Shown in pieces: positions 940 to 42,207 of a stretch of DNA of 64,000 bases. A model generated the notes under the pieces. That model ran no database searches. It saw only the letters and a program-made list of their open reading frames with translations, and was not told where the DNA came from. Source of the stretch: Enterobacteria phage CHB7; sequence record MK562504.1, one strand, 5' to 3'. The position numbers were made by a program, and so were the translations under genes. Positions within the stretch are counted from its first letter, which is position 1. Every line of letters begins with the position of its first letter.

Positions 940-3639
940 ATGGAAAACGTAGATTTTGAAAACTTGCACTTGGTAGGTGATACCGAAACTGATGGGTTAC
1001 TCCTTGAGTTCACAAAAGCACACGTAATGGCATTTGCAGATTACAAAGATGACAGTGACGAACCTGCTGTGTGGGTCTTCACCGATGAACCTATTCTTGG
1101 TCACAAGTGTACCAAATACATCAAAGGTGGTCTTCGTGAAGGTGTAGAGTTTGCTCTTAAGGCAAAGCGTCTCTGCATTCATAACGGTCTGGGTTATGAC
1201 TGGTGGGTGTTCAATCACATTGCGCCGGACTTATGGAACTTTGACAATCCGAAGTGCAAACCTTGGGGAGACTTCTTTCAGGATTCTCTTATCCAGTCTC
1301 GTGTTCAGTGGATGGATAGACCTACACCGAAAGGTTACAAAGGTGCTCATGGTTTGGCTGCATGGGGTGCTCGTGTTGGTGTTCGTAAACCAGAGATTGA
1401 AGAGTGGGGCGTTTGGAATGCTGACATTCTGAACCGTGTTGTTGAGGATATTCGAATCAACGCCAAAACTAAACGTGCTCTTGATAACGAATACCTGAAG
1501 TTGAAGAAGTGTGGTGTAGACACTTACGAAACATACATGCGAGCTAAAGAAACATCTTTTTGGATGAGTCAGCAAGCTATCAACGGTTGGAAAGCTGATA
1601 TTGAACTTATGCAGTTCCATGTCAAAGAACTTGACAGAATGACTGATGAATTAGCTGCTGAAGTTGAGCCTCATCTACCACCGACTATTAAGACGAAAGG
1701 CAAAGTCACTGGCGAAGAGTTTGCAAAAGCTTGGAACGAGTATGTGGAGACATTTGGTGAAGCAGATGGTTTGAAGCGTATCACTAAGTATCCAAAAACC
1801 AAGTTCCGTCAGCAGGTTCGTAATGGTGAGATGCAGACTTACGCTATCAAACCTTTTGGTAAACCGACTACCAAGATTTTCAACATTGAGAAGCGTAACT
1901 GCTACACTCCAACTAACACGGTTACGGGAGAAGAGTACAAAGAAGGTTTTGTGGCAATGAAAGATGCTCGTGCAGTTTGTAACGAGTTGAATGCTGTGAT
2001 TGATAAGAAGTGTAAAGACTGGAAACCAGTTAAAACTGTGAAGACTGTGAAGTACTACAACAATCACGTAGTAAATCACTTTGAACTTGAGTCAAGCCGT
2101 TACACAGGTTTGATTGATGCGCCTTATACACCAATTGAGTTTGAAGTTTCACGCATGACTCAGGTTGCGGTTGTGAAGGATTATCTGAAAACTCTTGGCT
2201 GGATTCCTGATGACTGGAACTACAAGAAAGATTCTGATGGTCGTCCGGTGAAGGTTTGTCGCTTCAAAGACAACAAGAAGATGATTCGTAAACATCCGAA
2301 ATGGCAAGAGATGGTAGACCGTTGTGGGTTGAACTATGTTGAACATGAAGGTGTACAGTACATCGAACACAACTGGTCTGTGAAGAAGTACACAGATTTG
2401 CTTGAGCCTTGCTTGATTCGTACTTCACCGAAACTGACTGAATCATCTTACGATACGATTGAAGGGGAACTTGGACAGAAGATTGCGAAGTACTATACTT
2501 TGATGCACCGACGCAGAACTATCGAAAACTCAAAGGATGACGAAAAGGGTTGGTTAAACCAGATTCGTCCAGATGGTCGTTTGAGTGCTGGTGCAATGGT
2601 GTTTGGTACTTCAACTGGACGTATGACACAATATGGAATTGTGAACGTACCTTCTGGAGCTGCTGTTTACGGTGAACCGATGAGGGCAGTCTGGATTTGT
2701 GAAGAAGGAACAAACGTAGTTTCCGTTGATATGAACTCTGCACAGCTTGTTCTACTGTGTAACTTTATGGGTGATAAGGAGTTCACCAAAGCGGTAACTC
2801 AGGGTAAAGAAGAGATTGAGTTTATCCGTCAGGAAGACGGTAGATACTACTGTAAACACTTTGACGAATACCTGAATCCAGAAGTTGATAAGTATCTGCG
2901 TTACGACTCTGAAAATGACTTGTACGTAGTCTACTCAGGTACTGATGCTCATACACTGAACAGTATCTACTTCAGCTTGAACGAAGAACAAGATATCTTG
3001 ACTTGTCGTATGACTCAGGATGAAAATCTTCTTCACGAAATCAGTAAGGGTCGTAAGAAAGCTAAGAATGGTATCTATGCGTTACTGTTCGGTGCTGGTG
3101 ATGAGAAGTTTGCTAAGACGATTAAAGCTGCGACTACTCAGGAAGGTGCATTAACTAAACAGACTTACTTTGTGCGTTTGCCGAAGATTAAGAAACTGTT
3201 AGATGACTTGGAAGCTGACTTTAAAGCAACTAAGAAAGCACTCGAAGAAGTATTTGGTAAGACTGCTGCAATTGCTAAAGGTGGTTTTGTCAAGGTTGCT
3301 GGAGCATGGTTGTGGTGTAAGTCTCCACACAAACTGTTGAACTACTTGCTGATGGGTTCAGAGGCACAAGTTCAGAATGAAGCAATCAACCTTGCATGTC
3401 GTCGTATGATTGATGAAGGTTTGATGAAGTTGAACGGTCGTAAGCCAGCTATCGGTGCTCGTTTACTCTGTGCATATCACGATGAAACAAGTTGGGAATG
3501 TCCAGAGAGCATGACAGCAGAAGTTAAGGCTGTGACTGACTGGTACTACGGTCAAGCTTCTAAGAACTTAGGGCTTCGTAAAGAAACTCTGGTAACAGGG
3601 ACTGGTAAAGTTGGTAAGTCTTGGTATGAGGTGCATTGA
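940..3639 (+). CDS. DNA polymerase, family A (T7 gp5-like) with 3'-5' exonuclease domain
   Basis: 899 aa; exo motif DTETDGL near N-terminus; segments HNGLGYDW, AHGLAAWGARVG and APYTPIEF resemble T7 DNA polymerase; RBS GAGAGGGAG before ATG at 940. Confidence 0.9.
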   Translation: MENVDFENLHLVGDTETDGLLLEFTKAHVMAFADYKDDSDEPAVWVFTDEPILGHKCTKYIKGGLREGVEFALKAKRLCIHNGLGYDWWVFNHIAPDLWNFDNPKCKPWGDFFQDSLIQSRVQWMDRPTPKGYKGAHGLAAWGARVGVRKPEIEEWGVWNADILNRVVEDIRINAKTKRALDNEYLKLKKCGVDTYETYMRAKETSFWMSQQAINGWKADIELMQFHVKELDRMTDELAAEVEPHLPPTIKTKGKVTGEEFAKAWNEYVETFGEADGLKRITKYPKTKFRQQVRNGEMQTYAIKPFGKPTTKIFNIEKRNCYTPTNTVTGEEYKEGFVAMKDARAVCNELNAVIDKKCKDWKPVKTVKTVKYYNNHVVNHFELESSRYTGLIDAPYTPIEFEVSRMTQVAVVKDYLKTLGWIPDDWNYKKDSDGRPVKVCRFKDNKKMIRKHPKWQEMVDRCGLNYVEHEGVQYIEHNWSVKKYTDLLEPCLIRTSPKLTESSYDTIEGELGQKIAKYYTLMHRRRTIENSKDDEKGWLNQIRPDGRLSAGAMVFGTSTGRMTQYGIVNVPSGAAVYGEPMRAVWICEEGTNVVSVDMNSAQLVLLCNFMGDKEFTKAVTQGKEEIEFIRQEDGRYYCKHFDEYLNPEVDKYLRYDSENDLYVVYSGTDAHTLNSIYFSLNEEQDILTCRMTQDENLLHEISKGRKKAKNGIYALLFGAGDEKFAKTIKAATTQEGALTKQTYFVRLPKIKKLLDDLEADFKATKKALEEVFGKTAAIAKGGFVKVAGAWLWCKSPHKLLNYLLMGSEAQVQNEAINLACRRMIDEGLMKLNGRKPAIGARLLCAYHDETSWECPESMTAEVKAVTDWYYGQASKNLGLRKETLVTGTGKVGKSWYEVH

Positions 3640-34936: not shown

Positions 34937-35012
34937 TTGGAGCGTCGAAAGGGAGTTGAACCCTCATAATCCTGTTTTGCAGACAGGTACATAGCCATTT
35001 CTGTCATCGACG
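34937..35012 (-). tRNA. tRNA-Cys (GCA)
   Basis: Hand-folded cloverleaf; loop CUGCAAA; encoded CCA; U73. Confidence 0.7.
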
Positions 35013-35019
35013 CATTAAA

Positions 35020-35113
35020 TTGGAGGAAGATACCAGACTTGAACTGGTACGCCGATTTCTCGGTTACTGACAGTTTAGCAAACTGTTCCCTTACCTTTTA
35101 GGGTTAATCTTCC
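35020..35113 (-). tRNA. tRNA-Ser (GCU), long variable arm
   Basis: Anticodon stem ACAGT/ACTGT, loop TTGCTAA; variable-arm hairpin CCGA-GAAA-TCGG. Confidence 0.7.
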
Positions 35114-35115
35114 AA

Positions 35116-35850
35116 TTATTTGTTCAAGGCATCCTTCATTTCTGGAGTTGCGATTGAATCAATCACACCAGTTTTACAAGCATCATCAAACCAGTCTGGT
35201 AAGACACCTGCAAGGAAACCATTAATATTAGTTTTCAAGTAATCAGCAATTAACGCTGCTTCATCTGCAATCATCTTAGTGACCTCATTAGCATATGCAG
35301 TAATCTTAGCAATGCCCTGATTAATCGCTGTAACGGCTTGTGAGGCTAAGGAAGAGATAGTGTCTAGTCCTTTATCAATTGCATCTTTTAAGTCGCTTAG
35401 AACGCCATTCACAGTGTCTATGGAGGTGTTAATCAAATCCATAGCTTGTTGACCGTACTCTGTAGCTACTCCCATGATTCCACTAAACGGTGTACAACCA
35501 ACTTGCTCTCCTGCTGCACCCATAACGTTAGAGTAACCTTTAGCTACCTGCATACGTGATGAGAACTCATCTACAGATTTCTGACCGTATTGAGTCAGTG
35601 TGTTAGTTGTCGTTGTAGTGCTTCCAAGGCTCGTTGAGAAGCTACTTAACAAGGCTGTAGTCAAACCAGCAGCAATAAGTTTATCTTTTACTGTAGGGTC
35701 TGATACCGAGCTAATAGAGCTTACTAATGAAGTAGAAGCGGCAATTGTGCCACCAAGGATTGCTGCACCAGTAATAAGAGGGTTAGAAAACCCGTTACCG
35801 GATTTCAGGAGATTAAAAATCTCTTTACCTTGTTCTGTCATCTCTTTCAT
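35116..35850 (-). CDS. hypothetical protein
   Basis: 244 aa Ser/Thr/Ala-rich protein inside the tRNA region. Confidence 0.5.
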   Translation of the reverse strand: MKEMTEQGKEIFNLLKSGNGFSNPLITGAAILGGTIAASTSLVSSISSVSDPTVKDKLIAAGLTTALLSSFSTSLGSTTTTTNTLTQYGQKSVDEFSSRMQVAKGYSNVMGAAGEQVGCTPFSGIMGVATEYGQQAMDLINTSIDTVNGVLSDLKDAIDKGLDTISSLASQAVTAINQGIAKITAYANEVTKMIADEAALIADYLKTNINGFLAGVLPDWFDDACKTGVIDSIATPEMKDALNK

Positions 35851-35867
35851 TAAGCACCTTTTGAAAT

Positions 35868-35944
35868 TGGCGGGTTAGTGGGATTTGAACCCTCTTCTCA
35901 TGTTTTTCAGACATGCGCTTTAACCATATAAGCTACTTAACCCA
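35868..35944 (-). tRNA. tRNA-Phe (GAA)
   Basis: Loop CUGAAAA; 3' end ambiguous by about 2 nt. Confidence 0.6.
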
Positions 35945-35951
35945 TTAAATT

Positions 35952-36028
35952 TGGGGTGACCTACGGGAATCGAACCCGTATAGACCATGTTCACAGCATG
36001 GGTCATTATCCATTTATGATAAGGCCAC
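35952..36028 (-). tRNA. tRNA-His (GUG)
   Basis: Loop CUGUGAA; C73; perfect T stem. Confidence 0.65.
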
Positions 36029-36059
36029 ATGTAAGGACTCTCGTAAGAACCCTTAGAAG

Positions 36060-36135
36060 TGGCAGCAGCGTAAGGATTTGAACCTTAATCTTTCAGCTTC
36101 AGAGGCTGGAGCATTGCCAGTTATGCTACACTGCT
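36060..36135 (-). tRNA. tRNA-Gln (CUG)
   Basis: Loop CUCUGAA; G73. Confidence 0.55.
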
Positions 36136-36142
36136 ATTAATT

Positions 36143-36221
36143 TGGTACTCCATATCGGATTCGAACCGATACATAACACAGATTTTAAGTCTGGCCTCTC
36201 TGCCAATTGGAGTAATGGAGC
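36143..36221 (-). tRNA. tRNA with Leu anticodon UAA, standard length (short variable region)
   Basis: Loop CUUAAAA; A73; about 79 nt, no long variable arm. Confidence 0.5.
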
Positions 36222-36223
36222 AT

Positions 36224-36299
36224 TGGCGGGGGATGTTGGAATTGAACCAACTTCTTCGATTTCAAAGACCGAGGTTTTAACCTTGTAAACTAATCCCCT
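36224..36299 (-). tRNA. tRNA-Gln (UUG)
   Basis: Stem TCGGT/ATCGA, loop CUUUGAA; G73. Confidence 0.6.
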
Positions 36300-36307
36300 T
36301 TAAATCT

Positions 36308-36865
36308 TTACTTTCTTAGTGGATGAATAAAGAATGCCAACATAATTCTTTCCCTTGAAAATGCTCTTTCTTCTGGGACAACACTTTTAAGTTTCCAACC
36401 AACATAAATTCTCCAGTAAAATTGTTTACCAAAGATTTTAATTGACGGGATAAAAGCGAATAAACCCCAAGCATTACTGTTCCACATCAGGAGATAACCT
36501 GTCTGATTATCTTCAGGGTTAGAACTTACGTTGATATTACCTTTCCACTTAGTAACATCTTTTACATCTCTTCCTAATACATGGTAAGAGAAGTTATAAG
36601 CTTTGTTTCTCCAGAGCCATCCAACTCTCTGCATATAAACACCGAGCTTACCAATCTTTCGAATCTTAGCCCATCGTTCAACGTGACCTTTGTCACCATC
36701 AATTGGGTTGTCATAAGTTTCCATCCATCTGAATCCAAAAGGTAAGTGACCTTTCTTCTCACTGTAGAATGGAACCACAAATGGTGCTAAGATTACTGCT
36801 AAGATTGCTGCAAATGGCTCTAGCAAAGCTAGGAAAATCCATGAAGCATACTTCAAATATCTCAT
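36308..36865 (-). CDS. membrane protein, hypothetical
   Basis: ATG 36863-36865 with AGAGG RBS; N-terminal hydrophobic segment; track ORF extends upstream from TTG into tRNA-Arg. Confidence 0.5.
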   Translation of the reverse strand: MRYLKYASWIFLALLEPFAAILAVILAPFVVPFYSEKKGHLPFGFRWMETYDNPIDGDKGHVERWAKIRKIGKLGVYMQRVGWLWRNKAYNFSYHVLGRDVKDVTKWKGNINVSSNPEDNQTGYLLMWNSNAWGLFAFIPSIKIFGKQFYWRIYVGWKLKSVVPEERAFSRERIMLAFFIHPLRK

Positions 36866-36885
36866 TTTAAATAGCCTCTTTAAAT

Positions 36886-36962
36886 TGGTGCAGAATAAGG
36901 GATTCGAACCCCTAACAAACAACTTCGTAGGTTGCTGCTCTATCCGTTTGAACTAATTCTGC
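36886..36962 (-). tRNA. tRNA-Arg (ACG)
   Basis: Loop CUACGAA; perfect 7 bp acceptor GCAGAAT/ATTCTGC. Confidence 0.65.
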
Positions 36963-37124
36963 AATGTTCTTTTGAGATTCCTGTCTAGCTCTCTTCTTAT
37001 CTCTTCTGAGAAAGCGTCTACGATGGTCTGTACGCCATTTGTAGTAATCTTCCTCACCAGCGTGAGAAGCACAGCAACCACAACTTGCAATTTCAACTTT
37101 ACCGTGTCTACCATAAGGCTTCAT
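36912..37124 (-). CDS. small basic Cys-containing ORF overlapping tRNA-Arg (doubtful)
   Basis: ATG with AGGAG RBS right after the preceding tRNA; last 51 nt overlap tRNA-Arg. Confidence 0.3.
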   Translation of the reverse strand: MKPYGRHGKVEIASCGCCASHAGEEDYYKWRTDHRRRFLRRDKKRARQESQKNIAELVQTDRAATYEVVC

Positions 37125-37140
37125 AGGAATCTCCTAAAAT

Positions 37141-37218
37141 TGGTGTTCCAAGACGGATTCGAACCGTCACTAATACAAGGTTTGAGCTTGCATCCTCTGC
37201 CAATTGGGATACTGGAAC
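37141..37218 (-). tRNA. tRNA with Leu anticodon CAA, standard length (short variable region)
   Basis: Stem GCAAG/CTTGT, loop CUCAAAC; A73; D-arm similar to the UAA tRNA. Confidence 0.5.
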
Positions 37219-37220
37219 AT

Positions 37221-37295
37221 TGGTACTCGCTGAAGGACTTGAACCTTCTTCACCAACTTGTAAGGATGGGGCTTTACCATATAAACTAAGCGAGT
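37221..37295 (-). tRNA. tRNA-Val (UAC)
   Basis: Loop CUUACAA; A73. Confidence 0.6.
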
Positions 37296-37391
37296 ATGAA
37301 AAGAGGTCTGAAGTTGTGCCGCTAACTCAACTCCGTGGAATTTGTTACGGTCTTCAGTTGACTCAAGCGGTCTTTCACTCGACCTCTGAAA

Positions 37392-37468
37392 TGGTGCTGC
37401 TCACAGGACTCGAACCTGCATTTCCATCCTTACAAGGGATGTGTAATAGCCAATTATACGAAAGCAGC
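37392..37468 (-). tRNA. tRNA-Thr (UGU)
   Basis: Stem CATCC/GGATG, loop CUUGUAA; A73. Confidence 0.65.
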
Positions 37469-37474
37469 ATTGTT

Positions 37475-37549
37475 TGGAGCATCCAGAGGGAATCGAACCC
37501 TCAACCTCAGTTTGGAAGACTGTAATTTTCCCGTTTAAACTATGGATGC
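37475..37549 (-). tRNA. tRNA-Gly (UCC)
   Basis: Loop CUUCCAA; U73; perfect T stem. Confidence 0.65.
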
Positions 37550-37555
37550 ACTAAT

Positions 37556-37631
37556 TGGTGGAGAAGCAGGGAATTGAACCCTGTACTTAAGTTTGCAAAA
37601 CTTATGTTTTAACCATGTAAACTACATCCCC
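37556..37631 (-). tRNA. tRNA-Ala (UGC)
   Basis: Stem TAAGT/ACTTA, loop UUUGCAA; G3-U70 wobble pair; A73. Confidence 0.7.
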
Positions 37632-37637
37632 AATGTT

Positions 37638-37713
37638 TGGTACAGGTGGAGGGAATTGAACCCATCGTCTTACTGATTAAGAGTCAGCCGCATAACCATT
37701 TTGCTACACCTGC
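37638..37713 (-). tRNA. tRNA-Lys (CUU)
   Basis: Loop CUCUUAA; A73. Confidence 0.55.
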
Positions 37714-37720
37714 ATTAATT

Positions 37721-37798
37721 TGGTAGGAGACAAGGGATTCGAACCCTCAAACACCAACTTCTAAGGATGGTAGGTTTACCAATTACCGTCAATCTCCC
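37721..37798 (-). tRNA. tRNA with Leu anticodon UAG, standard length (short variable region)
   Basis: Loop CUUAGAA; A73; about 78 nt. Confidence 0.45.
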
Positions 37799-37866
37799 AT
37801 TAAATCTTTGTAGAGAACTGCTAAGACGCCAAAGCAACAATGGTATCAAATGCCTTAACAATTCTC

Positions 37867-37887
37867 TAAAAAGACCTAACTGGTCTT
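37867..37887 (-). terminator. hairpin downstream of nuclease gene (weak terminator)
   Basis: AAAGACC-loop-GGTCTTT followed by U-rich tail on the minus strand. Confidence 0.35.
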
Positions 37888-38026
37888 TGCATAGTCTTGT
37901 TTAATCCGGTGACTAGAACCTTTGGAGAGCTTGATATTATCTCTTCTCCGTGACACCTACTAGGTGCTTTGTTGTGCGTGTACGACAATACACGAGGGAA
38001 ACCGAACGCTGTACCAGAGCGTGGGC

Positions 38027-38368
38027 TTAAATCTTTAAGCTAAGTTCAGTCTTGGACTTGACATCTTTAGCTTTGTAGATGACGACTTTATCAAGTGGTT
38101 CAATGTAAACAGCTAAGTAATCAACTTGAGAGTTATCAAAATTCATTATTCTATTTTCATTCTTGTTAGAACGAACTCTTTTCAGTTGCACTCTCCAAAG
38201 TTCACCTCTTTTGACTGATGTTGATTTTACCTCAACAGTCTCAATCAAACCATCTTTGTGAACTAGAAAGTCATACTTTGCATTATCTGTAGCTGGTGAA
38301 TACACTTCATAACCTCTTTTGAGGAAAGCTAATTGTGTAGCAATTTCACCTACTGAACCTTTCTTCAT
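38027..38368 (-). CDS. PD-(D/E)XK nuclease-like protein embedded in tRNA cluster
   Basis: ATG 38366-38368 with AAGGTGGTGA RBS; YDFLVHKDGLIETVEVKS resembles a D...ExK nuclease core. Confidence 0.5.
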   Translation of the reverse strand: MKKGSVGEIATQLAFLKRGYEVYSPATDNAKYDFLVHKDGLIETVEVKSTSVKRGELWRVQLKRVRSNKNENRIMNFDNSQVDYLAVYIEPLDKVVIYKAKDVKSKTELSLKI

Positions 38369-38390
38369 AATCACCACCTTAAAATTATTT

Positions 38391-38477
38391 TGGCAGAGAG
38401 TGCAGGAGTTGAACCCGTACCGTTTCCAGCAGCACCAGTTTTCAAGGCTGGTTGGTCTCCGTTGACCGCCACTCTCT
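38391..38477 (-). tRNA. tRNA-Ser (UGA), long variable arm
   Basis: Loop CUUGAAA; perfect acceptor AGAGAGT/ACTCTCT; G73; 87 nt. Confidence 0.65.
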
Positions 38478-38490
38478 CCGAAACAATCTT

Positions 38491-38573
38491 TGGCATGGGA
38501 CGGAGGAATCGAACCCCTTTGAGTAAGTTTTGGAGGCTTACGCACATGCCTTAGTGTCTTAACATCGTCCCAT
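38491..38573 (-). tRNA. tRNA-Trp (CCA), atypical 83 nt with enlarged D region
   Basis: Anticodon hairpin GTAAG-(C)CUCCAAA(A)-CTTAC; perfect acceptor; G73; extra nt between acceptor and D stem. Confidence 0.45.
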
Positions 38574-38715
38574 ATATTATTTCGAAGCTTACCGTATTAT
38601 CACAACACTGTAAAGCCCCTTCTCAGATTATTTACATGTTCTGGAAAACATGAGATACAGACCACCTCCCTACAGGAAGACCCGCTTAGGTCGTCTAAGT
38701 AATCTGCTAACTATT

Positions 38716-38743
38716 TGGTAGCCAAGGTAGGAGTCGAACCTAC
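38716..38743 (-). pseudogene. tRNA 3' fragment (CCA + acceptor + T arm only)
   Basis: TGG-T-AGCCAAG followed by T arm GTAGG-AGTCGAA-CCTAC; no matching 5' acceptor strand found within 100 nt. Confidence 0.4.
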
Positions 38744-38842
38744 TTACTCTCGAAGGTAGCTAACCTTCAGTAACTTTCCGACTTTCGTACATCTGTTAAC
38801 ATGTATTCAGATGGCTTACTAGTGTTGTCTTGACCATTAAAC

Positions 38843-38919
38843 TGGCACACCCTACAGGACTCGAACCTGTAACTCAGTGCTTAGAAGGCACTTGCTCTAT
38901 CCAATTGAACTAAGGGTGC
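38843..38919 (-). tRNA. tRNA-Arg (UCU)
   Basis: Loop CUUCUAA; G73. Confidence 0.65.
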
Positions 38920-39170
38920 ATTCTTATCTTTAAAGGCTCTCTTAGAAAACCCTTAAAGATGCCCACATTATTAATCATACCGTGGGCGAGTACGCCAAAT
39001 TCTTTGATGAGGGGTTGGAAGACCTCACTGGTGTTTAGCCTATTAAGCTACTGCCAGAAAAACATTATCGTTTGCATTTATTTTAGTTTGCAAAAATAGA
39101 CGCTACGCTAACGAAAACTAAGGTTACTATAAAGTGGTCACATCTGAATGTCAACAACTTTATCGAATTT

Positions 39171-39246
39171 GGTAGTGGTAGCAGGAATCGAACCTGCGAT
39201 GTTCGGTTATCAGCCGAGTGTTATGACCGTCTTAACTATACCACCA
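39171..39246 (-). tRNA. tRNA-Ile (GAU)
   Basis: Loop CUGAUAA; A73. Confidence 0.6.
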
Positions 39247-39248
39247 TT

Positions 39249-39325
39249 GGAGGTTCAGATGGGATTCGAACCCACATTCATAGGGCTTATGAAACCCTTG
39301 CATTACCTTATCTGCGACTGAACCA
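39249..39325 (-). tRNA. tRNA with CAU anticodon (Met or Ile2)
   Basis: Stem AGGGT/GCCCT, loop UUCAUAA; U73. Confidence 0.55.
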
Positions 39326-39403
39326 TAATAAGTTGCCCTTTGGAGAAGAACTATTGAGTGGGTGTTTCCAGCCGCGCAGGTGTTCTTCAGTTAAGGGCTA
39401 ATT

Positions 39404-39479
39404 TGGTAGGAGTGGAGGGATTCGAACCCTTCGCCTGTCAGATTAAAAGTCTGCCGCATCACCATTCTGCTACACTCCC
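39404..39479 (-). tRNA. tRNA-Lys (UUU)
   Basis: Loop CUUUUAA; A73. Confidence 0.6.
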
Positions 39480-39735
39480 ATTGAATCATCTTTGCAGTAA
39501 CCTACGCAAACCTTGCTAAAGGGTTTGTAGAGTCATTTCCTATTAAGCTAATCTAGAATCATGCTAAGGAAATTCATCGGCACTCATGGGACGACATTTA
39601 GCTCCATAAGTCACTGCAAAGAGGATTACCAGACCGTTGTTTATCTTAAGTGCTCCCATTACACCAACACGCCGTAACGTGTGAAGGAATCGAACCTTCG
39701 CCTTTTCTTTACCAGAGAAATAGATTGTTTTATAC

Positions 39736-39765
39736 TTGCTGTAAACGGTCTTCTGTAAATTTGTT
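39736..39765. repeat. inter-tRNA spacer repeat (TGCTGTAAACGGTCTTCTG family), copy 1
   Basis: Same about 20 nt word recurs at 40281-40306 and 40440-40466; CCAGACC word recurs near 39639, 39787, 40238, 40395. Confidence 0.6.
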
Positions 39766-39906
39766 GAGCCAGACCAAGTTTTAAATTTTTCAAAATTAAA
39801 TTGGCTTGAAATTTTTTAAGTTGGCTTGCTGAATTTGGTCTTCTGCTCCTTTAAAGAACACTCGTAAGAACTCTTTAAGGGAGGGGCTAAAAAGCCCTCT
39901 CAAATT

Positions 39907-39984
39907 TGGCGGTTACGAAGGGATTCGAACCCTCATCATCTCCCGTGACAGGGGAGTATTTTAACCAGATTAAACTACATAACC
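39907..39984 (-). tRNA. tRNA-Asp (GUC)
   Basis: Perfect stem CTCCC/GGGAG, loop CUGUCAC; G73. Confidence 0.7.
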
Positions 39985-39990
39985 TTTATT

Positions 39991-40078
39991 TGGTGCGCCG
40001 TGAAGGAGTCGAACCTACCGAGTCATAATGACAAGTGATTTACAGTCACCACCGCTTCCATCTACGGGATAACGACGC
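39991..40078 (-). tRNA. tRNA-Tyr (GUA), long variable arm
   Basis: Loop CUGUAAA; 88 nt; A73. Confidence 0.6.
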
Positions 40079-40148
40079 ATTTTATTCCATTCAGGCTAAG
40101 GACTTGCACCTTACAAATCGGTGAGCATTACGCTTCTCTCCCAAATCT

Positions 40149-40225
40149 TGGCGGTGAGTTAGGGATTCGAACCCTATGCCATTCGGTTAACAGCCGACCG
40201 CACATGCCTTATGTGCTTCCTCACC
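40149..40225 (-). tRNA. tRNA-Asn (GUU)
   Basis: Loop CUGUUAA; G73; perfect T stem. Confidence 0.65.
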
Positions 40226-40306
40226 ATGTTTAGTATTGCCAGACCGTATCTTTTCATTTTTCCTATAAAAATTTTTGAGATTGCTGTAAACGGTCTTCTG
40301 CAAATT

Positions 40307-40383
40307 TGGAGGCGGGTGCAGGAGTCGAACCTGCCGATACCATGCTAATGAGACATGTGAGACGCCCTTTCTCTATACCCGCG
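40307..40383 (-). tRNA. tRNA with CAU anticodon, unpaired 1-72 (C-C)
   Basis: Loop CUCAUUA; first acceptor pair is a C-C mismatch; U73. Confidence 0.5.
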
Positions 40384-40466
40384 AACTTTTATGACCAGAC
40401 CAAACTTTTAAGTTTTCTATGCGCGAAAAGTAAAGTTGTTTGCTGTACTTGGTCTTCTGTCAAATT

Positions 40467-40541
40467 TGGAGTCGTAGACGGGATTCGAACCCGCGAGCAA
40501 CTGATTGAAGGTCAGGTGGCTAACCATTTGCCTTCTACGAC
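40467..40541 (-). tRNA. tRNA-Glu (UUC), tentative
   Basis: Stem CTGA/TCAG, loop CCUUCAA (C at position 33 is unusual); perfect acceptor. Confidence 0.45.
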
Positions 40542-40548
40542 ATTAATT

Positions 40549-40625
40549 TGGTCTCCGTTGAAGGGATTGAACCTTCGACCTCACCGCCCCAAACGGCGCA
40601 CTCTACCAAACTGAGCTAAACGGAG
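40549..40625 (-). tRNA. tRNA-Pro (UGG)
   Basis: Loop UUUGGGG; C1-G72; A73; perfect acceptor. Confidence 0.7.
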
Positions 40626-40791: not shown

Positions 40792-42207
40792 TTACCAGAT
40801 GTAACGGTCAATCATTACTGCTTTGAGCATTACGCTGATTGGGTCAAACTTCTCACCACCAAGCAGAGCTTTTAAAGTGGCTGGAGAGAACCCTGATACC
40901 ATTGCTACCCCATTATCCTTAACAGACACTTCGCAAGTACCATTACGGTTTGCTAAGTACCAGAATACCAGTTGTGGCATTTCGTATCCAGCTTTTTCAT
41001 ACTTACTGCGAATTGCTTCGAAGTTTGTATGGCCATCTGCACCGTCAACCTGATTGAACTCCATATCAGAGAAGATAATAAGCTTACTTGGCATTGCTGC
41101 CTGAGTCAAGCCATTTCTTACACCGATTTCAAGAATACGGTCAAATGCTGCTTGCAGGTTTGTTGAACCATACTCAACCTTGTTCATTACCTGACGCATA
41201 CGAGTCTGCAAATCACCACTCAGAGTAATAAAGTGAGGTCTTGTGGAGTAAACCATTAACTCATCTTTAAAGCACCCTGTATTGCGTTCTGAGACGTATA
41301 ACGCCAAAGACAGGCCAATATCAAGAGCAGTTACAGAACCAAATGTCTGCCAAGTCATAGACGCTGATACATCTGACATACACAGAATGTTTTCACCTTC
41401 TGCCATCCAGTTTGGTAATGCTTTCCACTGTTCGTTTGCAACACTTGCTTTACCATGATTAACGGACTTCAGAATATCGTATGGGTACACAGCACCAGCA
41501 TTAATCTTGGCCTCACCTTTGGATAAAGCTTCAACGTAAGCTGCATAACGTTCACCGTCTTTCTTGCTGAACAGCTTTTGATAACGTGCAGCAGCCAGTG
41601 AAGGAATCTTGCTGTAGTCAATCTCACCAAAGTTATTTGTAGAGATTTTCTGTTCAACGGTATCAGACAAAGCTGATAACAGTGTACGGTATTCTTTCTC
41701 ACTCAGGCTTGCAAACTTACAGAAACGTTTTACAAACTGTTTGTGTCGTGGTTTTACTCGTGGTAACCACTTAGCCGCTAAACCTGCTGTATCAGGGTCT
41801 AACAAGGCTGCTTCTAAATGCTTGAAAGCATCTGTCTCATAACGAGTACCTACGAAGATTTTGAAGTCATCGAAACGACCTAATTCAGAAATCTTATCCA
41901 TGATACGAAGAACTTGGAAAGAATCCAGAATGTTATCTTCGATTGCTTGTAAGAGGACAGTTCGGAAAGCTTTACGCTCACCCATACCTTCTCGTACATC
42001 TCGCATATGCAGTAAAATACGAACTGCTACATCAACATCCTCACGCAAAGCTTTGTAGAACAAGTCTGGGAGAATCTCTACATTGCCACGGCTTGAGCCA
42101 GCAGCTTTATAGAAGTCTACCAAGGCAGACATTGATGATGTATGGTTAACAGCACCATTTTCAGTTCGCCCTGCATGGAGGTGCGAATGTTTAAATAAAT
42201 CGCTCAT
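40792..42207 (-). CDS. vWA-domain protein with MIDAS motif (DUF2828/TROVE-like?)
   Basis: 471 aa; DxSxS MIDAS motif in LCMSDVSASM; N-terminal RTENGAV segment; purine-rich RBS. Confidence 0.6.
   Translation of the reverse strand: MSDLFKHSHLHAGRTENGAVNHTSSMSALVDFYKAAGSSRGNVEILPDLFYKALREDVDVAVRILLHMRDVREGMGERKAFRTVLLQAIEDNILDSFQVLRIMDKISELGRFDDFKIFVGTRYETDAFKHLEAALLDPDTAGLAAKWLPRVKPRHKQFVKRFCKFASLSEKEYRTLLSALSDTVEQKISTNNFGEIDYSKIPSLAAARYQKLFSKKDGERYAAYVEALSKGEAKINAGAVYPYDILKSVNHGKASVANEQWKALPNWMAEGENILCMSDVSASMTWQTFGSVTALDIGLSLALYVSERNTGCFKDELMVYSTRPHFITLSGDLQTRMRQVMNKVEYGSTNLQAAFDRILEIGVRNGLTQAAMPSKLIIFSDMEFNQVDGADGHTNFEAIRSKYEKAGYEMPQLVFWYLANRNGTCEVSVKDNGVAMVSGFSPATLKALLGGEKFDPISVMLKAVMIDRYIW

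What the first reader, a model, noticed from the sequence alone, without database searches (positions are those of the whole stretch)
38491..39700. Atypical 83 nt tRNA-Trp, a tRNA 3' half and decayed tRNA-like copies in the cluster
The CCA-anticodon tRNA at 38491-38573 has a perfect acceptor and T arm but about 8 extra nt between acceptor and D stem, and a 5 bp anticodon stem closed by a C-A pair. 38716-38743 holds only CCA + acceptor + T arm with no partner 5' strand. 39563-39670 resembles a degraded copy of the Trp gene (shared CATGGGACG...TCTTAA...CCCAT). A T-arm-like hairpin sits alone at 39683-39699. The cluster is evidently evolving by duplication and decay; the tRNA-like fragments could also be structured ncRNAs such as Y-RNA-like tRNA mimics.
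Basis: seen in the sequence. Interest (0 to 1): 0.4.

Follow-up and report, generated by a model that had tools for sequence, protein, structure and literature searches.

The report
Conserved odd tRNA-like RNAs, not decay
This stretch of a FelixO1-like phage's tRNA operon holds conserved, specially shaped tRNA-related RNAs rather than decaying tRNA copies: an odd tRNA-Trp, a 120-nt tRNA-like RNA, a Y RNA next to the phage's Ro60-like gene, and a tmRNA-like tag template.

Summary
The window is a Felixounavirus-type phage (96% to Escherichia phage EcSzw-2), with its tRNA operon on the minus strand.

- **Trp element, 38491-38573:** real. It is a conserved non-canonical tRNA(CCA) with a 10-nt acceptor-to-D connector and a 9-nt anticodon loop. 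All four stems covary: 99.2% of cells paired, 8 pairs changed on both sides. It supplies the only amino acid missing from the phage's tRNA set. ARAGORN and Rfam both miss it.
- **"3' half":** this is the 3' part of a 120-nt tRNA-like RNA (38716-38835). Its 5' acceptor strand lies about 93 nt upstream.
- **"Decayed Trp copy":** not above chance.
- **"Lone T arm":** this is the T arm of a 135-nt YrlA-type Y RNA (39625-39759), ordered V hairpin, T arm, capped acceptor-like hairpin, D arm, all inside a terminal stem. It lies 1 kb downstream of a DUF2828 protein, on the same strand. That protein's AlphaFold model matches Ro60 over its full length.
  - Full-length homologues of the RNA sit just downstream of DUF2828 genes in five divergent phage contigs.
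  - 20 of 29 pairs covary.
- **tmRNA-like tag template, about 38921-39119:** also inside the interval. It encodes ANDNVFLAVA followed by two stops and is found in 622 phage records. No attached tRNA-like domain was found.

The duplication-and-decay reading is not supported. The Y-RNA idea holds for one element. All functions are inferred.

The parts
38491..38573 (-). Non-canonical tRNA(CCA), probable tRNA-Trp, 83 nt. Acceptor stem 38567-38573 / 38495-38501. 10-nt connector GAUGUUAAGA 38557-38566. D stem CAC/GUG 38554-38556 / 38543-38545. Anticodon stem 38537-38541 / 38523-38527. 9-nt loop 38528-38536 with CCA at 38531-38533. T stem 38514-38517 / 38503-38506. G73 at 38494. CCA end 38491-38493.
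   Evidence: Sequence. Not called by ARAGORN or Rfam. Alignments A1/A4/A6. Covariation: 99.2% paired, 8 pairs with changes on both sides, 0/500 shuffles, none in slid controls.
38574..38715 (-). Spacer S1, 142 nt and non-coding. It is 98.5% identical to FelixO1, whereas the flanking Trp tRNA is about 84%. It contains the hairpin CAUGUU-UUCCAG-AACAUG, an AGAC-GACC...GGU-GGUCUG stem, and a weak promoter-like TTTACA/TTGACA-17-TAAGCT near its 3' end.
   Evidence: blastn identities. Alignment of 23 variants. Fold z = -2.6. Weak promoter match. Function not resolved.
38716..38835 (-). 120-nt tRNA-like RNA. Acceptor stem GGUCAAG (38829-38835) / CUUGGCU (38720-38726). T arm GUAGG-UUCGACU-CCUAC (38727-38743). 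A73 plus an encoded CCA (38716-38719). Two internal hairpins replace the D and anticodon arms: CAUCUG...CAGAUG and GAAGGU-UAGCU-ACCUUC.
   Evidence: MFE and RNAalifold pair the two ends. Five E. coli/Shigella/Citrobacter phage copies keep the stems, with compensatory changes in both internal hairpins and U3.G70 <-> U3-A70. The Yersinia phage P778 copy (L008:2233-2345) has a re-paired acceptor GGUCUGU/GCAGACC, the same UAGCU loop and no encoded CCA.
38843..38919 (-). Canonical tRNA-Arg(UCU). It lies between the tag-template RNA and the 120-nt tRNA-like RNA.
   Evidence: ARAGORN, Rfam 61.8 bits.
38921..39119 (-). About 200-nt tmRNA-like tag-template RNA.
- Conserved 5' block AGUUUUCGU at the predicted transcription start (~39119).
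- Resume-like GCA at 39075; tag ANDNVFLAVA 39046-39075.
- UAA UAG 39040-39045, in the loop of helix 39054-39057 / 39028-39031.
- Hairpin 39023-39027 / 39008-39012.
- Pseudoknot 39015-39018 with 38995-38998.
- Hairpin 38982-38986 / 38962-38966.
- Terminal 16-bp hairpin at about 38925-38960.
   Evidence: Rfam tmRNA_permuted 38.6 bits (GA 47), with the tag aligned to the model's tag. tmRNA RF00023 local match on REP10. 622 phage records. 16 tag peptides AN[DE]xx[FY]LA(A)VA with third-position and stop-to-stop changes. Covariation including the pseudoknot. No tmRNA called by ARAGORN.
39126..39154 (-). Sigma-70-type promoter TTGACA-17-TATAGT (11 of 12 matches) in front of the tag-template RNA.
   Evidence: Consensus scan. 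Conserved in most relatives and replaced in FelixO1-type genomes that carry an HNH gene insertion.
39625..39759 (-). YrlA-type Y RNA candidate, 135 nt.
- Terminal stem AGACCGUU 39744-39751 / AACGGUCU 39631-39638.
- Conserved UACAGCAA 39735-39742.
- V hairpin 39716-39720 / 39704-39708.
- T arm 39683-39699.
- Capped acceptor-like (AS) hairpin 39676-39682 / 39667-39673.
- D arm GUGU-AAUGGGA-GCAC 39650-39664.
   Evidence: Alignments A8/A10. Pair counts. Model R2 finds full-length homologues next to DUF2828 genes in L096, L098, L100, L101 and L102. 95.8% paired, 20/29 pairs with changes on both sides. Rfam tRNA partial hit at 39683-39736. Rfam YrlA 40.9 bits on homologue L096:7707-7815.
39769..39845 (-). 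Short stem-only relative E1 (CAGAAGACCAAAUUCAGCAA ... CUUGGUCUGG), without a tRNA-like module. YrlB-like.
   Evidence: Seen in sequence. The stem differs from E2 by compensatory changes. Not reported by R2 with default filters.
40235..40304 (-). Short stem-only relative E3 (CAGAAGACCGUUUACAGCAA ... ACGGUCUGG).
   Evidence: R2 48.0 bits, E 2.8e-7.
40391..40463 (-). Short stem-only relative E4 (CAGAAGACCAAGUACAGCAA ... UUUGGUCUGG).
   Evidence: R2 33.3 bits, E 3.8e-4.
40792..42207 (-). Ro60-like protein gene (471 aa; Pfam DUF2828 + DUF7788; PHROG 850 'RNA-binding protein'), directly upstream of the tRNA operon on the same strand.
   Evidence: Pfam. PHROGs. AlphaFold2 pLDDT 88.7. The top 12 Foldseek PDB hits are all Ro60/TROVE, E 2e-9 to 1.5e-6, TM up to 0.65. 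The Bas63 gp130 homologue was reported as Ro60-like and as a counter to Ppl defence.

Best explanation
The interval is part of the minus-strand tRNA operon of a FelixO1-like (Ounavirinae) phage. It holds a set of conserved, purpose-built tRNA-related RNAs, not decaying gene copies.

**(a) 38491-38573: the phage's tRNA-Trp in a non-canonical shape.**
- Shown: conservation, pairing and the invariant CCA anticodon.
- Inferred: it is processed, charged by TrpRS and decodes UGG. The odd D domain and 9-nt loop may serve to escape a host tRNA-directed nuclease or to tune decoding.

**(b) 38716-38835: a 120-nt RNA that keeps only the acceptor/T-arm 'minihelix' and the CCA end of a tRNA.**
- Shown: the fold, with compensatory changes seen by eye.
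- Inferred: it is cut out by RNase P and the 3' processing enzymes. Its role is unknown.

**(c) 39625-39759: a Y RNA of the YrlA type.**
- A terminal stem encloses a circularly permuted tRNA-like module: V hairpin, T arm, capped acceptor-like hairpin, D arm.
- Three shorter stem-only copies (E1, E3, E4) share the conserved AGA-stem-U-N-N-CAGCAA ... stem-UCUG core.
- Shown: structure, covariation, and repeated same-strand adjacency to DUF2828 genes whose product is predicted to fold like Ro60.
- Inferred: these RNAs bind the phage Ro60-like protein through the conserved stem, forming an RNP. That RNP would act on structured RNAs or tRNAs during infection, including the reported counter-defence role of the Bas63 homologue.

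**(d) About 38921-39119: a promoter-driven, about 200-nt RNA resembling the messenger part of tmRNA.**
- Shown: coding-type conservation of the tag frame and covarying helices, including a pseudoknot.
- Inferred: ribosomes can resume on it during trans-translation. The partner that would deliver it is unknown.
For: **Phage identity and tRNA set**
- 304 related phage records; best match EcSzw-2 at 96%.
- 24 ARAGORN tRNAs, plus Glu and Tyr from Rfam, cover 19 amino acids. Only Trp is missing.

**(a) Trp tRNA**
- 13 distinct sequences from Felixounavirus, Mooglevirus, Suspvirus and Yersinia/Pectobacterium phages.
- 99.2% of cells paired, 8 pairs changed on both sides, 0/500 shuffles reach the score, no covariation in slid controls.
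- Connector GAUGUUAAGA, U33, CCA, A37 and G73 are invariant.

**(b) 120-nt RNA**
- The ends pair in both MFE and RNAalifold.
- Compensatory changes in both internal hairpins.
- The acceptor stem is re-paired in Yersinia phage P778.

**(c) Y RNA**
- Order V-T-AS-D inside a terminal stem, as described for YrlA.
- The AS hairpin has three unrelated sequences that all pair.
- Model R2 finds full-length copies 0.3-1.5 kb downstream of DUF2828 genes, on the same strand, in L096 (two copies), L098, L100, L101 (two copies) and L102, with E 1e-8 to 1e-15.
- 95.8% paired, 20/29 pairs changed on both sides, score 0.372 versus 0.105 shuffled and at most 0.088 slid.
- Rfam's own YrlA model scores 40.9 bits on L096:7707-7815.
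- The protein model (pLDDT 88.7) matches Ro60 structures over its full length.
- An independent report describes Bas63 gp130 as Ro60-like and located upstream of the tRNAs.

**(d) Tag-template RNA:**
Against: - No expression, processing, aminoacylation or binding data exist for any of these RNAs. Everything functional is inferred.
- **Trp tRNA:** Rfam tRNA gives no hit at E<=10. A 10-nt connector, a 3-bp D stem, a 4-bp T stem and a 9-nt loop may be incompatible with TrpRS, EF-Tu or the ribosome. The REP10 copy has a G.A mismatch in the acceptor stem. Erwinia Ounavirinae carry a normal tRNA-Trp instead.
- **Y RNA:**
  - Rfam YrlA finds nothing in the window.
  - The GNCGAAN0-1G Ro-binding motif of YrlA is absent.
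  - The A11 alignment was fitted to the model, so its pair counts lean towards the structure.
  - One close lineage (L099) has only the short copies, and three DUF2828 contigs (L095, L103, L104) have none within the fetched flanks.
  - The protein is a Ro60 look-alike by predicted fold only (13-16% identity).
- **120-nt RNA:** only six sequences, and most relatives carry a different 82-nt element at this site.
- **Tag RNA:** below Rfam's gathering score, and no tRNA-like domain was found.
Confidence: 0.7

Rival explanations
1. Duplication and decay. The odd Trp gene, the '3' half', the Trp-like stretch and the lone T arm are pseudogenes and fragments left by tRNA gene turnover. They have no function of their own.
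For: - tRNA finders reject all of them.
- The cluster is clearly fluid. Homing endonuclease genes (PD-(D/E)XK here, HNH in FelixO1) are inserted between tRNAs.
- The site of the 120-nt RNA holds a different 82-nt element in most relatives.
- A T-AS-D module could have arisen from two adjacent tRNAs.
Against: - Decay predicts loss of pairing. Instead 99.2% (Trp) and 95.8% (Y-like) of cells pair, with many changes on both sides.
- The unpaired connector and the D/T loops are invariant across genera.
- The Y-like RNA recurs next to DUF2828 genes in phages whose proteins are only 46-57% identical.
- The supposed degraded Trp copy is not above chance.
Confidence: 0.05
2. Processing scaffolds only. 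The conserved hairpins and tRNA-like pieces in the spacers are cis signals (RNase P, RNase E or RNase III sites, punctuation, terminators or promoters). They ensure correct maturation of the neighbouring tRNAs from the polycistronic transcript. They are not trans-acting RNAs and have no link to the Ro60-like protein.
For: - All elements lie between tRNAs in one operon.
- Acceptor/T-arm minihelices are RNase P substrates (established knowledge).
- Several other spacer hairpins also covary without any obvious trans function, for example the CUUUAAAG hairpins.
- The short stem-only copies follow tRNA 3' ends closely.
- L099 lacks the tRNA-like module.
Against: - Processing signals do not need a complete D arm with A14, G18, G19 and A21 together with a T loop UUCGAUU placed to interact with it.
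- They also do not need a conserved CAGCAA motif.
- In L096, L101 and L102 the Y-like RNAs sit directly after the DUF2828 gene and before the first tRNA.
- Rfam YrlA partially recognises one of them.
Confidence: 0.15
3. The 83-nt CCA element is a tRNA mimic rather than a decoder. It keeps TrpRS and anticodon features to act as a decoy, for example by soaking up a host anticodon nuclease or tRNA-binding defence protein. Alternatively it is a further ligand of the Ro60-like RNP. It is not used on the ribosome.
For: - Non-canonical connector, D stem, T stem and 9-nt loop.
- The invariant single-stranded GAUGUUAAGA looks like a binding site.
- A UUAAGA motif also follows the D arm of the Y-like RNA.
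- No tRNA model accepts it.
Against: - It fills exactly the one gap in an otherwise complete 20-amino-acid set.
- It keeps U33, CCA, A37, G73, A1-U72 and an encoded CCA end. The assignment of these as E. coli TrpRS identity elements is from established knowledge.
- Related Erwinia phages carry a normal tRNA-Trp, suggesting the function is needed.
Confidence: 0.2

Closest known systems
YrlA (Y RNA-like A; Rfam RF02553), the tRNA-mimicking Y RNA bound by bacterial Ro60 (Rsr). Described for Salmonella, Mycobacterium and 22 phages by Chen et al. 2014 (PMC4201824).
   Same: - Same topology: the 5' and 3' ends form a stem enclosing a V hairpin, a T arm, an acceptor-like stem-loop and a D arm.
- tRNA-like D- and T-loop nucleotides.
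- Encoded within a few kb of a Ro60-type protein gene, on the same strand.
- Accompanied by shorter YrlB-like RNAs that share the stem.
   Different: - The partner protein is DUF2828/DUF7788. It is Ro60-like only by predicted fold (13-16% identity) and is not annotated as TROVE.
- The GNCGAAN0-1G motif is absent, replaced by AGA-stem-U-N-N-CAGCAA ... UCUG.
- The Rfam model does not reach threshold (no hit in the window; 40.9 versus 69 bits on a homologue).
- The RNA is embedded in a tRNA operon downstream of the protein gene.
Bacterial tRNA-Trp (E. coli trpT type)
   Same: A1-U72, G73, anticodon loop core CUCCAAA, 7-bp acceptor stem, T loop UUCGAUU, GG in the D loop, encoded CCA. Comparison with E. 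coli tRNA-Trp is from knowledge.
   Different: - 10 nt instead of 2 between the acceptor and D stems.
- 3-bp D stem.
- 26-44 Watson-Crick pair with a 31.39 mismatch (C.A or C.C), giving a 9-nt open loop.
- 4-bp T stem plus an A.C mismatch.
- Rejected by ARAGORN and Rfam.
tmRNA (SsrA), including two-piece/permuted forms (Rfam RF00023, RF04321)
   Same: - Resume-type GCA preceded by AUAAAU.
- 10-11-codon tag AN[DE]xx[FY]LA(A)VA, resembling E. coli ANDENYALAA and the alpha-proteobacterial ...AVAA tags.
- Stop codons in the loop of a helix-5-like stem, followed by a pseudoknot.
- A UUUCG block resembling the TLD D-loop analogue.
   Different: - No acceptor/T-arm domain joined to it.
- The predicted 5' end starts at AGUUUUCGU, with no acceptor strand.
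- ARAGORN finds no tmRNA in 59 diverse copies.
- Below Rfam gathering scores (38.6 and 15.3 versus 47).
- About 200 nt.
- Phage-borne and widespread in enterobacterial phages. A 2014 census listed phage ssrA only in mycobacteriophages and Bacillus phage G.
Stable 'species 1 and 2' RNAs (rnaC, rnaD) of the phage T4 tRNA cluster. Recalled from memory, not tested here.
   Same: Small stable RNAs of unknown function, encoded among phage tRNA genes and matured with them. This is a possible analogue of the 120-nt tRNA-like RNA.
   Different: No sequence or structure comparison was made. The resemblance is a lead only.

Membership tests
Canonical tRNA (Rfam RF00005 / ARAGORN) - for 38491-38573 | Recognised by tRNA covariance model or gene finder at threshold | tested here: not met
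   No ARAGORN call. No RF00005 hit even at E<=10.
Canonical tRNA - for 38491-38573 | Four-arm cloverleaf maintained by compensatory change | tested here: met
   Acceptor, D, anticodon and T stems all covary. 99.2% paired, 8 pairs changed on both sides.
Canonical tRNA - for 38491-38573 | Two-nucleotide connector (positions 8-9), 7-nt anticodon loop, 5-bp T stem | tested here: not met
   10-nt connector; 9-nt loop (31.39 is C.A or C.C in all variants); 4 bp plus A.C in the T stem.
tRNA-Trp identity (E. coli type) | Anticodon CCA, discriminator G73, A1-U72 (identity set from established knowledge) | tested here: met
   CCA and G73 are invariant. A1-U72 is present in 8 of 13 distinct sequences; the others have G.U or G-C. 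The window's called tRNAs cover 19 amino acids, leaving only Trp.
tRNA-Trp identity | Aminoacylation by TrpRS and use in decoding | not testable with these tools
   Needs charging assays or charged-tRNA sequencing.
YrlA-type Y RNA - for 39625-39759 | Encoded within about 4 kb of a Ro60 orthologue, on the same strand | tested here: met
   The gene ends at 40792 and the RNA starts at 39759, same strand. The same arrangement is seen in L096, L098, L100, L101 and L102. The protein is Ro60-like by predicted fold only.
YrlA-type Y RNA | Terminal stem enclosing V, T, acceptor-like (AS) and D stem-loops in that order, with tRNA-like T and D loops | tested here: met
   compared with the description. 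D loop AAUGGnA, T loop UUCGAUU.
YrlA-type Y RNA | GNCGAAN0-1G motif near the 5' end (putative Rsr-binding site) | tested here: not met
   The 5' region reads CAGAAGACCGUUUACAGCAAG. The family-wide conserved motif is CAGCAA after the stem.
YrlA-type Y RNA | Rfam RF02553 gathering score (69 bits) | tested here: not met
   No hit on 39600-39780 at E<=10. 40.9 bits on homologue L096:7707-7815.
YrlA-type Y RNA | Physical binding to the Ro60 protein | not testable with these tools
   Needs RIP/CLIP or gel shift with the DUF2828 protein.
Ro60 / TROVE + vWA proteins - for 40792-42207 | HEAT-repeat ring plus vWA domain fold | tested here: met
   AF2 pLDDT 88.7, pTM 0.88. The top 12 Foldseek PDB hits are all Ro60/TROVE over about 510-545 aligned columns. 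Sequence searches against PDB find nothing. Pfam assigns DUF2828 + DUF7788, not TROVE.
tmRNA - for about 38921-39119 | Tag reading frame with an alanine resume codon, a hydrophobic C-terminus and a stop, under coding constraint | tested here: met
   ANDNVFLAVA plus UAA UAG. 16 peptide variants, third-position and stop-to-stop changes, and the alternative AUG frame is not conserved.
tmRNA | tRNA-like domain (acceptor stem with G3.U70, T arm, CCA) formed by the ends of the same RNA or by a paired second piece | tested here: not met
   None was found by ARAGORN or Rfam in the window, HK620, ChubbyThor or 59 representatives. The conserved block starts at the predicted TSS. A trans partner cannot be excluded.
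tmRNA | Rfam gathering score (47 bits) | tested here: not met
   RF04321 38.6 bits, partly owed to the tRNA-Ile T arm. RF00023 15.3 bits on REP10.

The most novel reading that the evidence does not exclude
The about 200-nt tag-template RNA (about 38921-39119) would be a previously undescribed, widespread class of phage RNA. It would be a tmRNA-derived 'coding piece' without its own tRNA-like domain, carried by Ounavirinae, lambdoid (HK620), Ackermannviridae, N4-like and T5-like phages.

In this reading it lets the phage take over trans-translation. Stalled ribosomes would resume on the phage template and add AN(D/E)xx(F/Y)LAVA instead of the host ...ALAA degron.

It might work together with the non-canonical tRNA-like RNAs encoded next to it, acting as an acceptor piece:
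- the 120-nt RNA here;
- the D-armless G3.U70/A73 'tRNA' in FelixO1;
- the UGUGGUG/CACCACA stem in lambdoid phages.

On this reading the whole interval, together with the Ro60-like RNP and its Y RNAs, is a phage toolkit of tRNA mimics aimed at host translation-surveillance and tRNA-directed defence.
Probability: 0.25. Interest if true: 0.9.

Novelty: new variant of a known kind. Interest (0 to 1): 0.7.

Why it matters
1. **A named RNA candidate for a phage counter-defence protein.** The Bas63 homologue (gp130) of the Ro60-like protein was reported to counter the Ppl defence system. Its authors only guessed that some neighbouring 'tRNA genes' might be Y RNAs. This work gives a concrete candidate with exact coordinates, a conserved core motif, and homologues in several phage lineages. 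Binding and deletion experiments become straightforward.
2. **Gene finders miss a conserved phage tRNA.** With the non-canonical tRNA-Trp, FelixO1-like phages carry tRNAs for all 20 amino acids. The invariant 10-nt connector and 9-nt anticodon loop form a natural variant of tRNA architecture whose compatibility with TrpRS, EF-Tu and the ribosome can be tested.
3. **An unannotated tmRNA-like RNA in model phages.** The tag-template RNA, present in 622 deposited phage genomes including HK620, appears unannotated. If functional, it would link phages to ribosome rescue in a new way.

Tried and rejected
- **Group I intron in the tRNA cluster**, prompted by the PD-(D/E)XK PDDEXK_5 endonuclease ORF at 38027-38371. 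No Intron_gpI hit at E<=10. Dropped.
- **Intron or split gene as the explanation of the '3' half'.** 120 nt is too small for a group I intron, and the ends pair as an ordinary acceptor stem.
- **The 39563-39670 'degraded Trp copy'.** Local alignment is no better than 4.6% of shuffles.
- **Spacer stems CAGAAGACC...GGUCUGG as sigma-70 promoters (TTTACA-17-TATAGG).** The hexamers are not kept between copies or in the Yersinia phage.
- **A small protein in S1.** Only a 7-codon ORF, which is frameshifted in L064.
- **Sequence searches of the DUF2828 protein against PDB.** No hits. Only the fold search worked.
- **tRNA-Ile T arm as the acceptor piece of a permuted tmRNA**, as aligned by Rfam. The promoter lies between them, and relatives with an HNH insertion keep only the part downstream of UAGUUUUCG.
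- **A generic search for an acceptor/T-arm partner downstream of the tag.** Too permissive. The phiEa104 hit is the neighbouring tRNA-Leu, and the FelixO1-type GCGUACU/AGUAUGC pairing may be chance.
- **Complementarity between the 120-nt RNA linker ACGAAAGU and the tag RNA 5' GUUUUCGU** (8 bp, 2 G.U). Roughly p = 0.03, found post hoc, and absent from the FelixO1-type 82-nt element. Not relied on.
- **An H-type pseudoknot in the Trp D domain (AUG 9-11 with CAU 28-30).** Always pairable, but only one-sided changes. Left as a possibility.
- **First IMG/VR pattern for the tag.** It had the wrong spacing and found nothing.


Full report
**What the window is.** The region matches 304 phage records. 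The best match is Escherichia phage EcSzw-2 (96.2%), followed by Felixounavirus, Mooglevirus and Suspvirus genomes.

The finding lies inside a minus-strand tRNA operon (34938-40625). ARAGORN tRNAs. Rfam adds tRNA-Glu (40470-40541, 53.7 bits) and a weak tRNA-Tyr (39996-40076, 22.8 bits). Together these cover 19 amino acids, and only Trp is missing.

The gene directly upstream on the same strand (40792-42207) is DUF2828 + DUF7788.

**The 83-nt CCA element (38491-38573, minus strand).**
- acceptor AUGGGAC/GUCCCAU, G73 and an encoded CCA;
- connector GAUGUUAAGA of 10 nt rather than 2;
- D stem CAC/GUG with loop UAAGGCAU;
- anticodon stem GUAAG/CUUAC with loop CCUCCAAAA;
- T stem GGGG/CCUC plus an A.C mismatch, so the T arm is not perfect.

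Neither ARAGORN nor Rfam tRNA at E<=10 reports it, and none of the relatives I inspected annotates it.

It is nevertheless conserved. A model built from 8 copies finds 34 copies at 94-112 bits, whereas ordinary tRNAs score below 41. The 13 distinct sequences include Yersinia phage P778 and Pectobacterium phage Arno18.

Pair counts:
- 99.2% of cells paired.
- 8 of 19 pairs changed on both sides. Examples are the anticodon stem GUAAG/CUUAC, AACGG/CCGUU and GUAGG/CCUAC; the D stem CAC/GUG and CUC/GAG; acceptor A-U,U-A versus G-C,C-G; and T stem G-C versus U-A.
- 0/500 shuffles reach the score.
- There is no change on both sides in any slid control.

Positions 31/39 are C.A or C.C in every variant, so the loop is effectively 9 nt. 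The connector, U33, CCA, A37 and G73 never vary.

A possible extra helix (AUG 9-11 with CAU 28-30, which would make an H-type pseudoknot with the D stem) is always pairable but shows only one-sided changes.

More distant copies exist. L100:8009-8088 has a shorter, different connector, and L098:10254-10337 is poorly paired. Erwinia phage phiEa104 (Kolesnikvirus) instead carries a canonical tRNA-Trp.

I conclude this is a functional RNA and most likely the phage's tRNA-Trp. A1-U72, G73 and CCA are the E. coli TrpRS identity set (my knowledge, not tested here). Charging and decoding are inferred.

**The '3' half' (38716-38743).** The T arm, CUUGGCU and ACCA are there. However, the folding programs pair CUUGGCU with GGUCAAG at 38829-38835. 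The element is therefore a 120-nt tRNA-like RNA (38716-38835; exact ends) that starts 7 nt after tRNA-Arg(UCU).

Five phage copies keep the acceptor stem (U3.G70 in the window, U3-A70 elsewhere). They show compensatory changes in both internal hairpins: C-G to U-A in the first, and GAAGGU/ACCUUC to GAAGGG/CCCUUC in the second.

Yersinia phage P778 has a copy after its own tRNA-Arg(UCU). Its acceptor stem is re-paired (GGUCUGU/GCAGACC), it has the same UAGCU loop on a different stem (AUGGG/CCCAU), and it has no encoded CCA.

In most Felixounaviruses the homologous site, immediately upstream of the same S1 spacer, holds something else. It is an 82-nt 'tRNA-OTHER' with a 7-bp acceptor stem, no D arm, a UCU anticodon arm that covaries between REP10 and VpaE1, a 23-nt variable region, G3.U70 and A73. 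Those genomes lack the canonical tRNA-Arg(UCU) at this place.

The role of the 120-nt RNA is unknown. What it keeps is exactly the part of a tRNA that RNase P and the CCA enzyme recognise (established knowledge).

**The 'decayed Trp copy' (39563-39670).** The only real similarity is the 9-mer CGUCCCAUG. 4.6% of shuffles and 9% of same-size windows of this genome score as well. The 'AUGGGAG...UUAAGA' part belongs to the D arm of the element described next. The stretch beyond 39600 is not even conserved in FelixO1-type relatives.

**The 'lone T arm' (39683-39699) is part of a YrlA-type Y RNA.** The 427-nt Asp-Lys spacer is conserved at 87-99% across the family.

Reading the minus strand, the elements come in this order:
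1. 8-bp stem strand AGACCGUU;
2. UACAGCAA;
3. hairpin UUUCU-CUGGUAA-AGAAA;
4. T arm GAAGG-UUCGAUU-CCUUC;
5. directly after it, capped hairpin ACACG-UUACGG-CGUGU;
6. UG;
7. D arm GUGU-AAUGGGA-GCAC (A14, G18, G19 and A21 in place);
8. UUAAGAUAAAC;
9. closing strand AACGGUCU.

The capped hairpin has three unrelated sequences in relatives (ACACG/CGUGU, CUCGGC/GUCGAG, CCUUC/GAAGG), and all of them pair.

This order, V-T-AS-D inside a stem made by the two ends, is the one Chen et al. (2014) describe for YrlA, the tRNA-mimicking Y RNA bound by bacterial Ro60. They found YrlA within 4 kb of the Ro60 gene and on the same strand.

Rfam's tRNA model sees only positions 9-63 here (31.3 bits). Rfam's YrlA model sees nothing.

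**The neighbouring protein is Ro60-like.**
- PHROGs calls it 'RNA-binding protein'.
- Sequence searches against PDB find nothing.
- An AlphaFold2 model from a 35-sequence alignment has pLDDT 88.7.
- Its 12 best Foldseek PDB matches are all Ro60/TROVE proteins: Thermus phage phiLo Ro60, Xenopus and human Ro60, and Deinococcus Rsr. They have E 2e-9 to 1.5e-6, TM up to 0.65 and full-length alignments, and are followed only by vWA domains.

A 2024 preprint reached the same view for the Bas63 homologue gp130. It showed that gp130 counters the Ppl defence system and speculated that some downstream 'tRNA genes' might be Y RNAs, without naming any.

**Independent test of the link.** I fetched contigs encoding DUF2828 proteins that are 41-63% identical to the window's. 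I searched them with a model (R2) built only from Felixounavirus-type copies.

| Contig | Full-length hits (bits) | Position relative to the DUF2828 gene |
|---|---|---|
| L098 | 72.6 | same strand, downstream |
| L100 | 84.7 | same strand, downstream |
| L096 | 62.1 and 54.1 | starting 240 nt after the gene |
| L101 | 60.5 and 52.1 | starting 270 nt after the gene |
| L102 | 50.5 | 280 nt after the gene |

Rfam's own YrlA model scores 40.9 bits on L096:7707-7815, below its 69-bit threshold but the best non-tRNA family there.

On the combined alignment, 95.8% of cells pair and 20 of 29 pairs show changes on both sides in all five helices. The score is 0.372, against 0.105 for shuffles (0/500) and at most 0.088 for slid partners. 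That alignment was fitted to the model, so the counts lean towards the structure. The location of the hits is independent evidence.

The family-wide conserved core is AGA-stem-U-N-N-CAGCAA ... stem-UCUG.

Shorter copies with this core but no tRNA-like module occur at:
- window 40235-40304 and 40391-40463;
- window 39769-39845 (by eye);
- the Yersinia phage, with compensatory stems GGACUGU/ACAGUCC;
- L099, which has only short copies.

These resemble YrlB. No copy was found within the fetched flanks of L095, L103 or L104.

Membership in YrlA proper is not claimed. The GNCGAA motif is absent, and the Rfam threshold is not met.

**A tmRNA-like tag template in the same interval.** A relaxed Rfam scan gave tmRNA_permuted at 39043-39228 (38.6 bits, gathering score 47). 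Part of that score comes from the tRNA-Ile T arm. The model's tag region, however, aligns to AAAUAAAU GCA AAC GAU AAU GUU UUU CUG GCA GUA GCU UAA UAG, which reads ANDNVFLAVA-stop-stop (39075-39040). The standard tmRNA model also aligns locally, and co-linearly, on REP10.

A strong promoter, TTGACA-17-TATAGT at 39154-39126, places the start near 39119. That is exactly where conservation begins (AGUUUUCGU).

The element is not confined to this family. 622 phage records match, including HK620 (in the late leader between pR'/qut and S), Ackermannviridae, N4-like and T5-like phages, and Erwinia Ounavirinae.

Evidence for coding constraint in the tag frame:
- Tags from diverse copies are ANDNVFLAVA, ANEEMYLAVA, ANDNAYLAVA, ANDAQFLAVA and others, 16 peptides in all.
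- Variation is concentrated at third codon positions.
- Stops interchange among TAA, TAG and TGA.
- The overlapping AUG frame is not conserved.

On a structure-blind MAFFT alignment of 14 diverse copies, a hand-drawn structure gave 91.6% of cells paired. The structure has the stop codons in a helix-5-like loop, then a hairpin, a pseudoknot and a second hairpin. 13 of 22 pairs changed on both sides, including 4/4 in the pseudoknot (CCAA/UUGG, CCGA/UCGG, CCAG/CUGG). The score was 0.400, against 0.149 for shuffles and at most 0.123 for slid partners.

No tRNA-like domain is attached. ARAGORN finds no tmRNA in the window, in HK620, in ChubbyThor or in 59 representatives.

Non-canonical tRNA-like elements do lie nearby in several lineages:
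- the 120-nt RNA here;
- the G3.U70/A73 82-nt element in FelixO1-type phages;
- a UGUGGUG/CACCACA stem with a covarying hairpin in lambdoid phages;
- a tRNA-like element upstream in ChubbyThor.

I could not show that any of them pairs with the tag RNA.

A 2014 census listed phage ssrA only in mycobacteriophages and Bacillus phage G. My literature searches found no description of this element, but the library is incomplete.

**Overall.** Items 1 and 4 exist, item 2 is mis-delimited, and item 3 is chance.

The duplication-and-decay interpretation is not supported.

Mechanisms are inferred from anatomy, conservation and neighbourhood. No expression or binding data were available.

Noticed in passing
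window 38921-39154 (minus strand); homologues L105:1150-1350 (HK620), L106:1150-1350 (ChubbyThor), L107:2480-2680 (phiEa104): A promoter-driven, about 200-nt RNA carries a tmRNA-like tag frame (ANDNVFLAVA, UAA UAG). The stops lie in a helix loop, followed by a covarying pseudoknot. It is present in 622 phage records from many families. No attached tRNA-like domain was found, it scores below Rfam thresholds, and it is unannotated in every record inspected.
   Followed up: partly
L002:1453-1534 (REP10), L001:1453-1534 (VpaE1), L003:1559-1640 (FelixO1): Most Felixounaviruses carry, in place of tRNA-Arg(UCU) plus the 120-nt RNA, an 82-nt D-armless 'tRNA-OTHER'. It has a UCU anticodon arm (which covaries), a 23-nt variable region, G3.U70 and A73 (the alanine/tmRNA identity marks) and an encoded CCA.
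   Followed up: partly
window 38574-38715: Spacer S1 is 98.5% identical to FelixO1, while the adjacent Trp tRNA is about 84%. It has a conserved hairpin (CAUGUU...AACAUG), an AGAC..GUCUG stem resembling the Y-like core, and a weak promoter-like site. In the Yersinia and Pectobacterium phages a conserved 37-41-codon ORF occupies this position instead (L008:2368-2493, L009:2379-2492).
   Followed up: partly
window 38027-38371 (minus strand); L003:638-1123, 1611-2003, 2921-3334: Homing-type endonuclease genes sit between tRNA genes: a PD-(D/E)XK (PDDEXK_5) ORF in the window and three HNH genes in FelixO1. Homology between genomes breaks at these points. This explains why relatives differ in which tRNA-like element they carry.
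   Followed up: no
window 39996-40082 and 40470-40541 (minus strand): The window's tRNA-Tyr(GUA) scores only 22.8 bits, has a U.U mismatch in its T stem, and is missed by ARAGORN, although relatives' copies are called. tRNA-Glu(UUC) is also missed by ARAGORN but scores 53.7 bits in Rfam.
   Followed up: no
window 38925-38960 and 39852-39885 (minus strand): Very stable hairpins built around CUUUAAAG (fold z = -4.3 for 38920-39060). They show compensatory changes between relatives, or are replaced outright by a different hairpin. They may be processing or termination signals within the operon.
   Followed up: partly
window 39539-39550 (minus strand): A second copy of UAGCUUAAUAGG (the 3' end of the tag plus its stop codons) lies about 500 nt upstream in the Asp-Lys spacer. 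The frame before it (HDSRLA) is not tag-like, and the stretch is absent from FelixO1-type relatives.
   Followed up: no
L106:951-1029 (ChubbyThor); L105:1428-1520 (HK620): Non-canonical tRNA-like elements lie next to the tag RNA in unrelated phages. ChubbyThor has GGCGAGG...GUGUG-GUUCGAUUC-CACAC-CCUCGCC-A with no anticodon arm, about 130 nt upstream. Lambdoid phages have UGUGGUG...GCCGG-9 nt-CCGGC-CACCACA about 200 nt downstream; the hairpin covaries and there is no conserved CCA.
   Followed up: partly
window 38557-38562 and 39643-39648 (minus strand): The hexamer UUAAGA occurs in the invariant connector just 5' of the Trp D stem, and again just 3' of the D arm of the Y-like RNA. This may be a shared protein contact or chance.
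   Followed up: no
L101:3231-3305 and 1817-1891; L100:5607-5681: In distant DUF2828-encoding phage contigs ARAGORN calls a tRNA with a CUA (amber-reading) anticodon, and tRNAs with two-base 'anticodons'. These are further unusual tRNAs next to Ro60-like genes.
   Followed up: no
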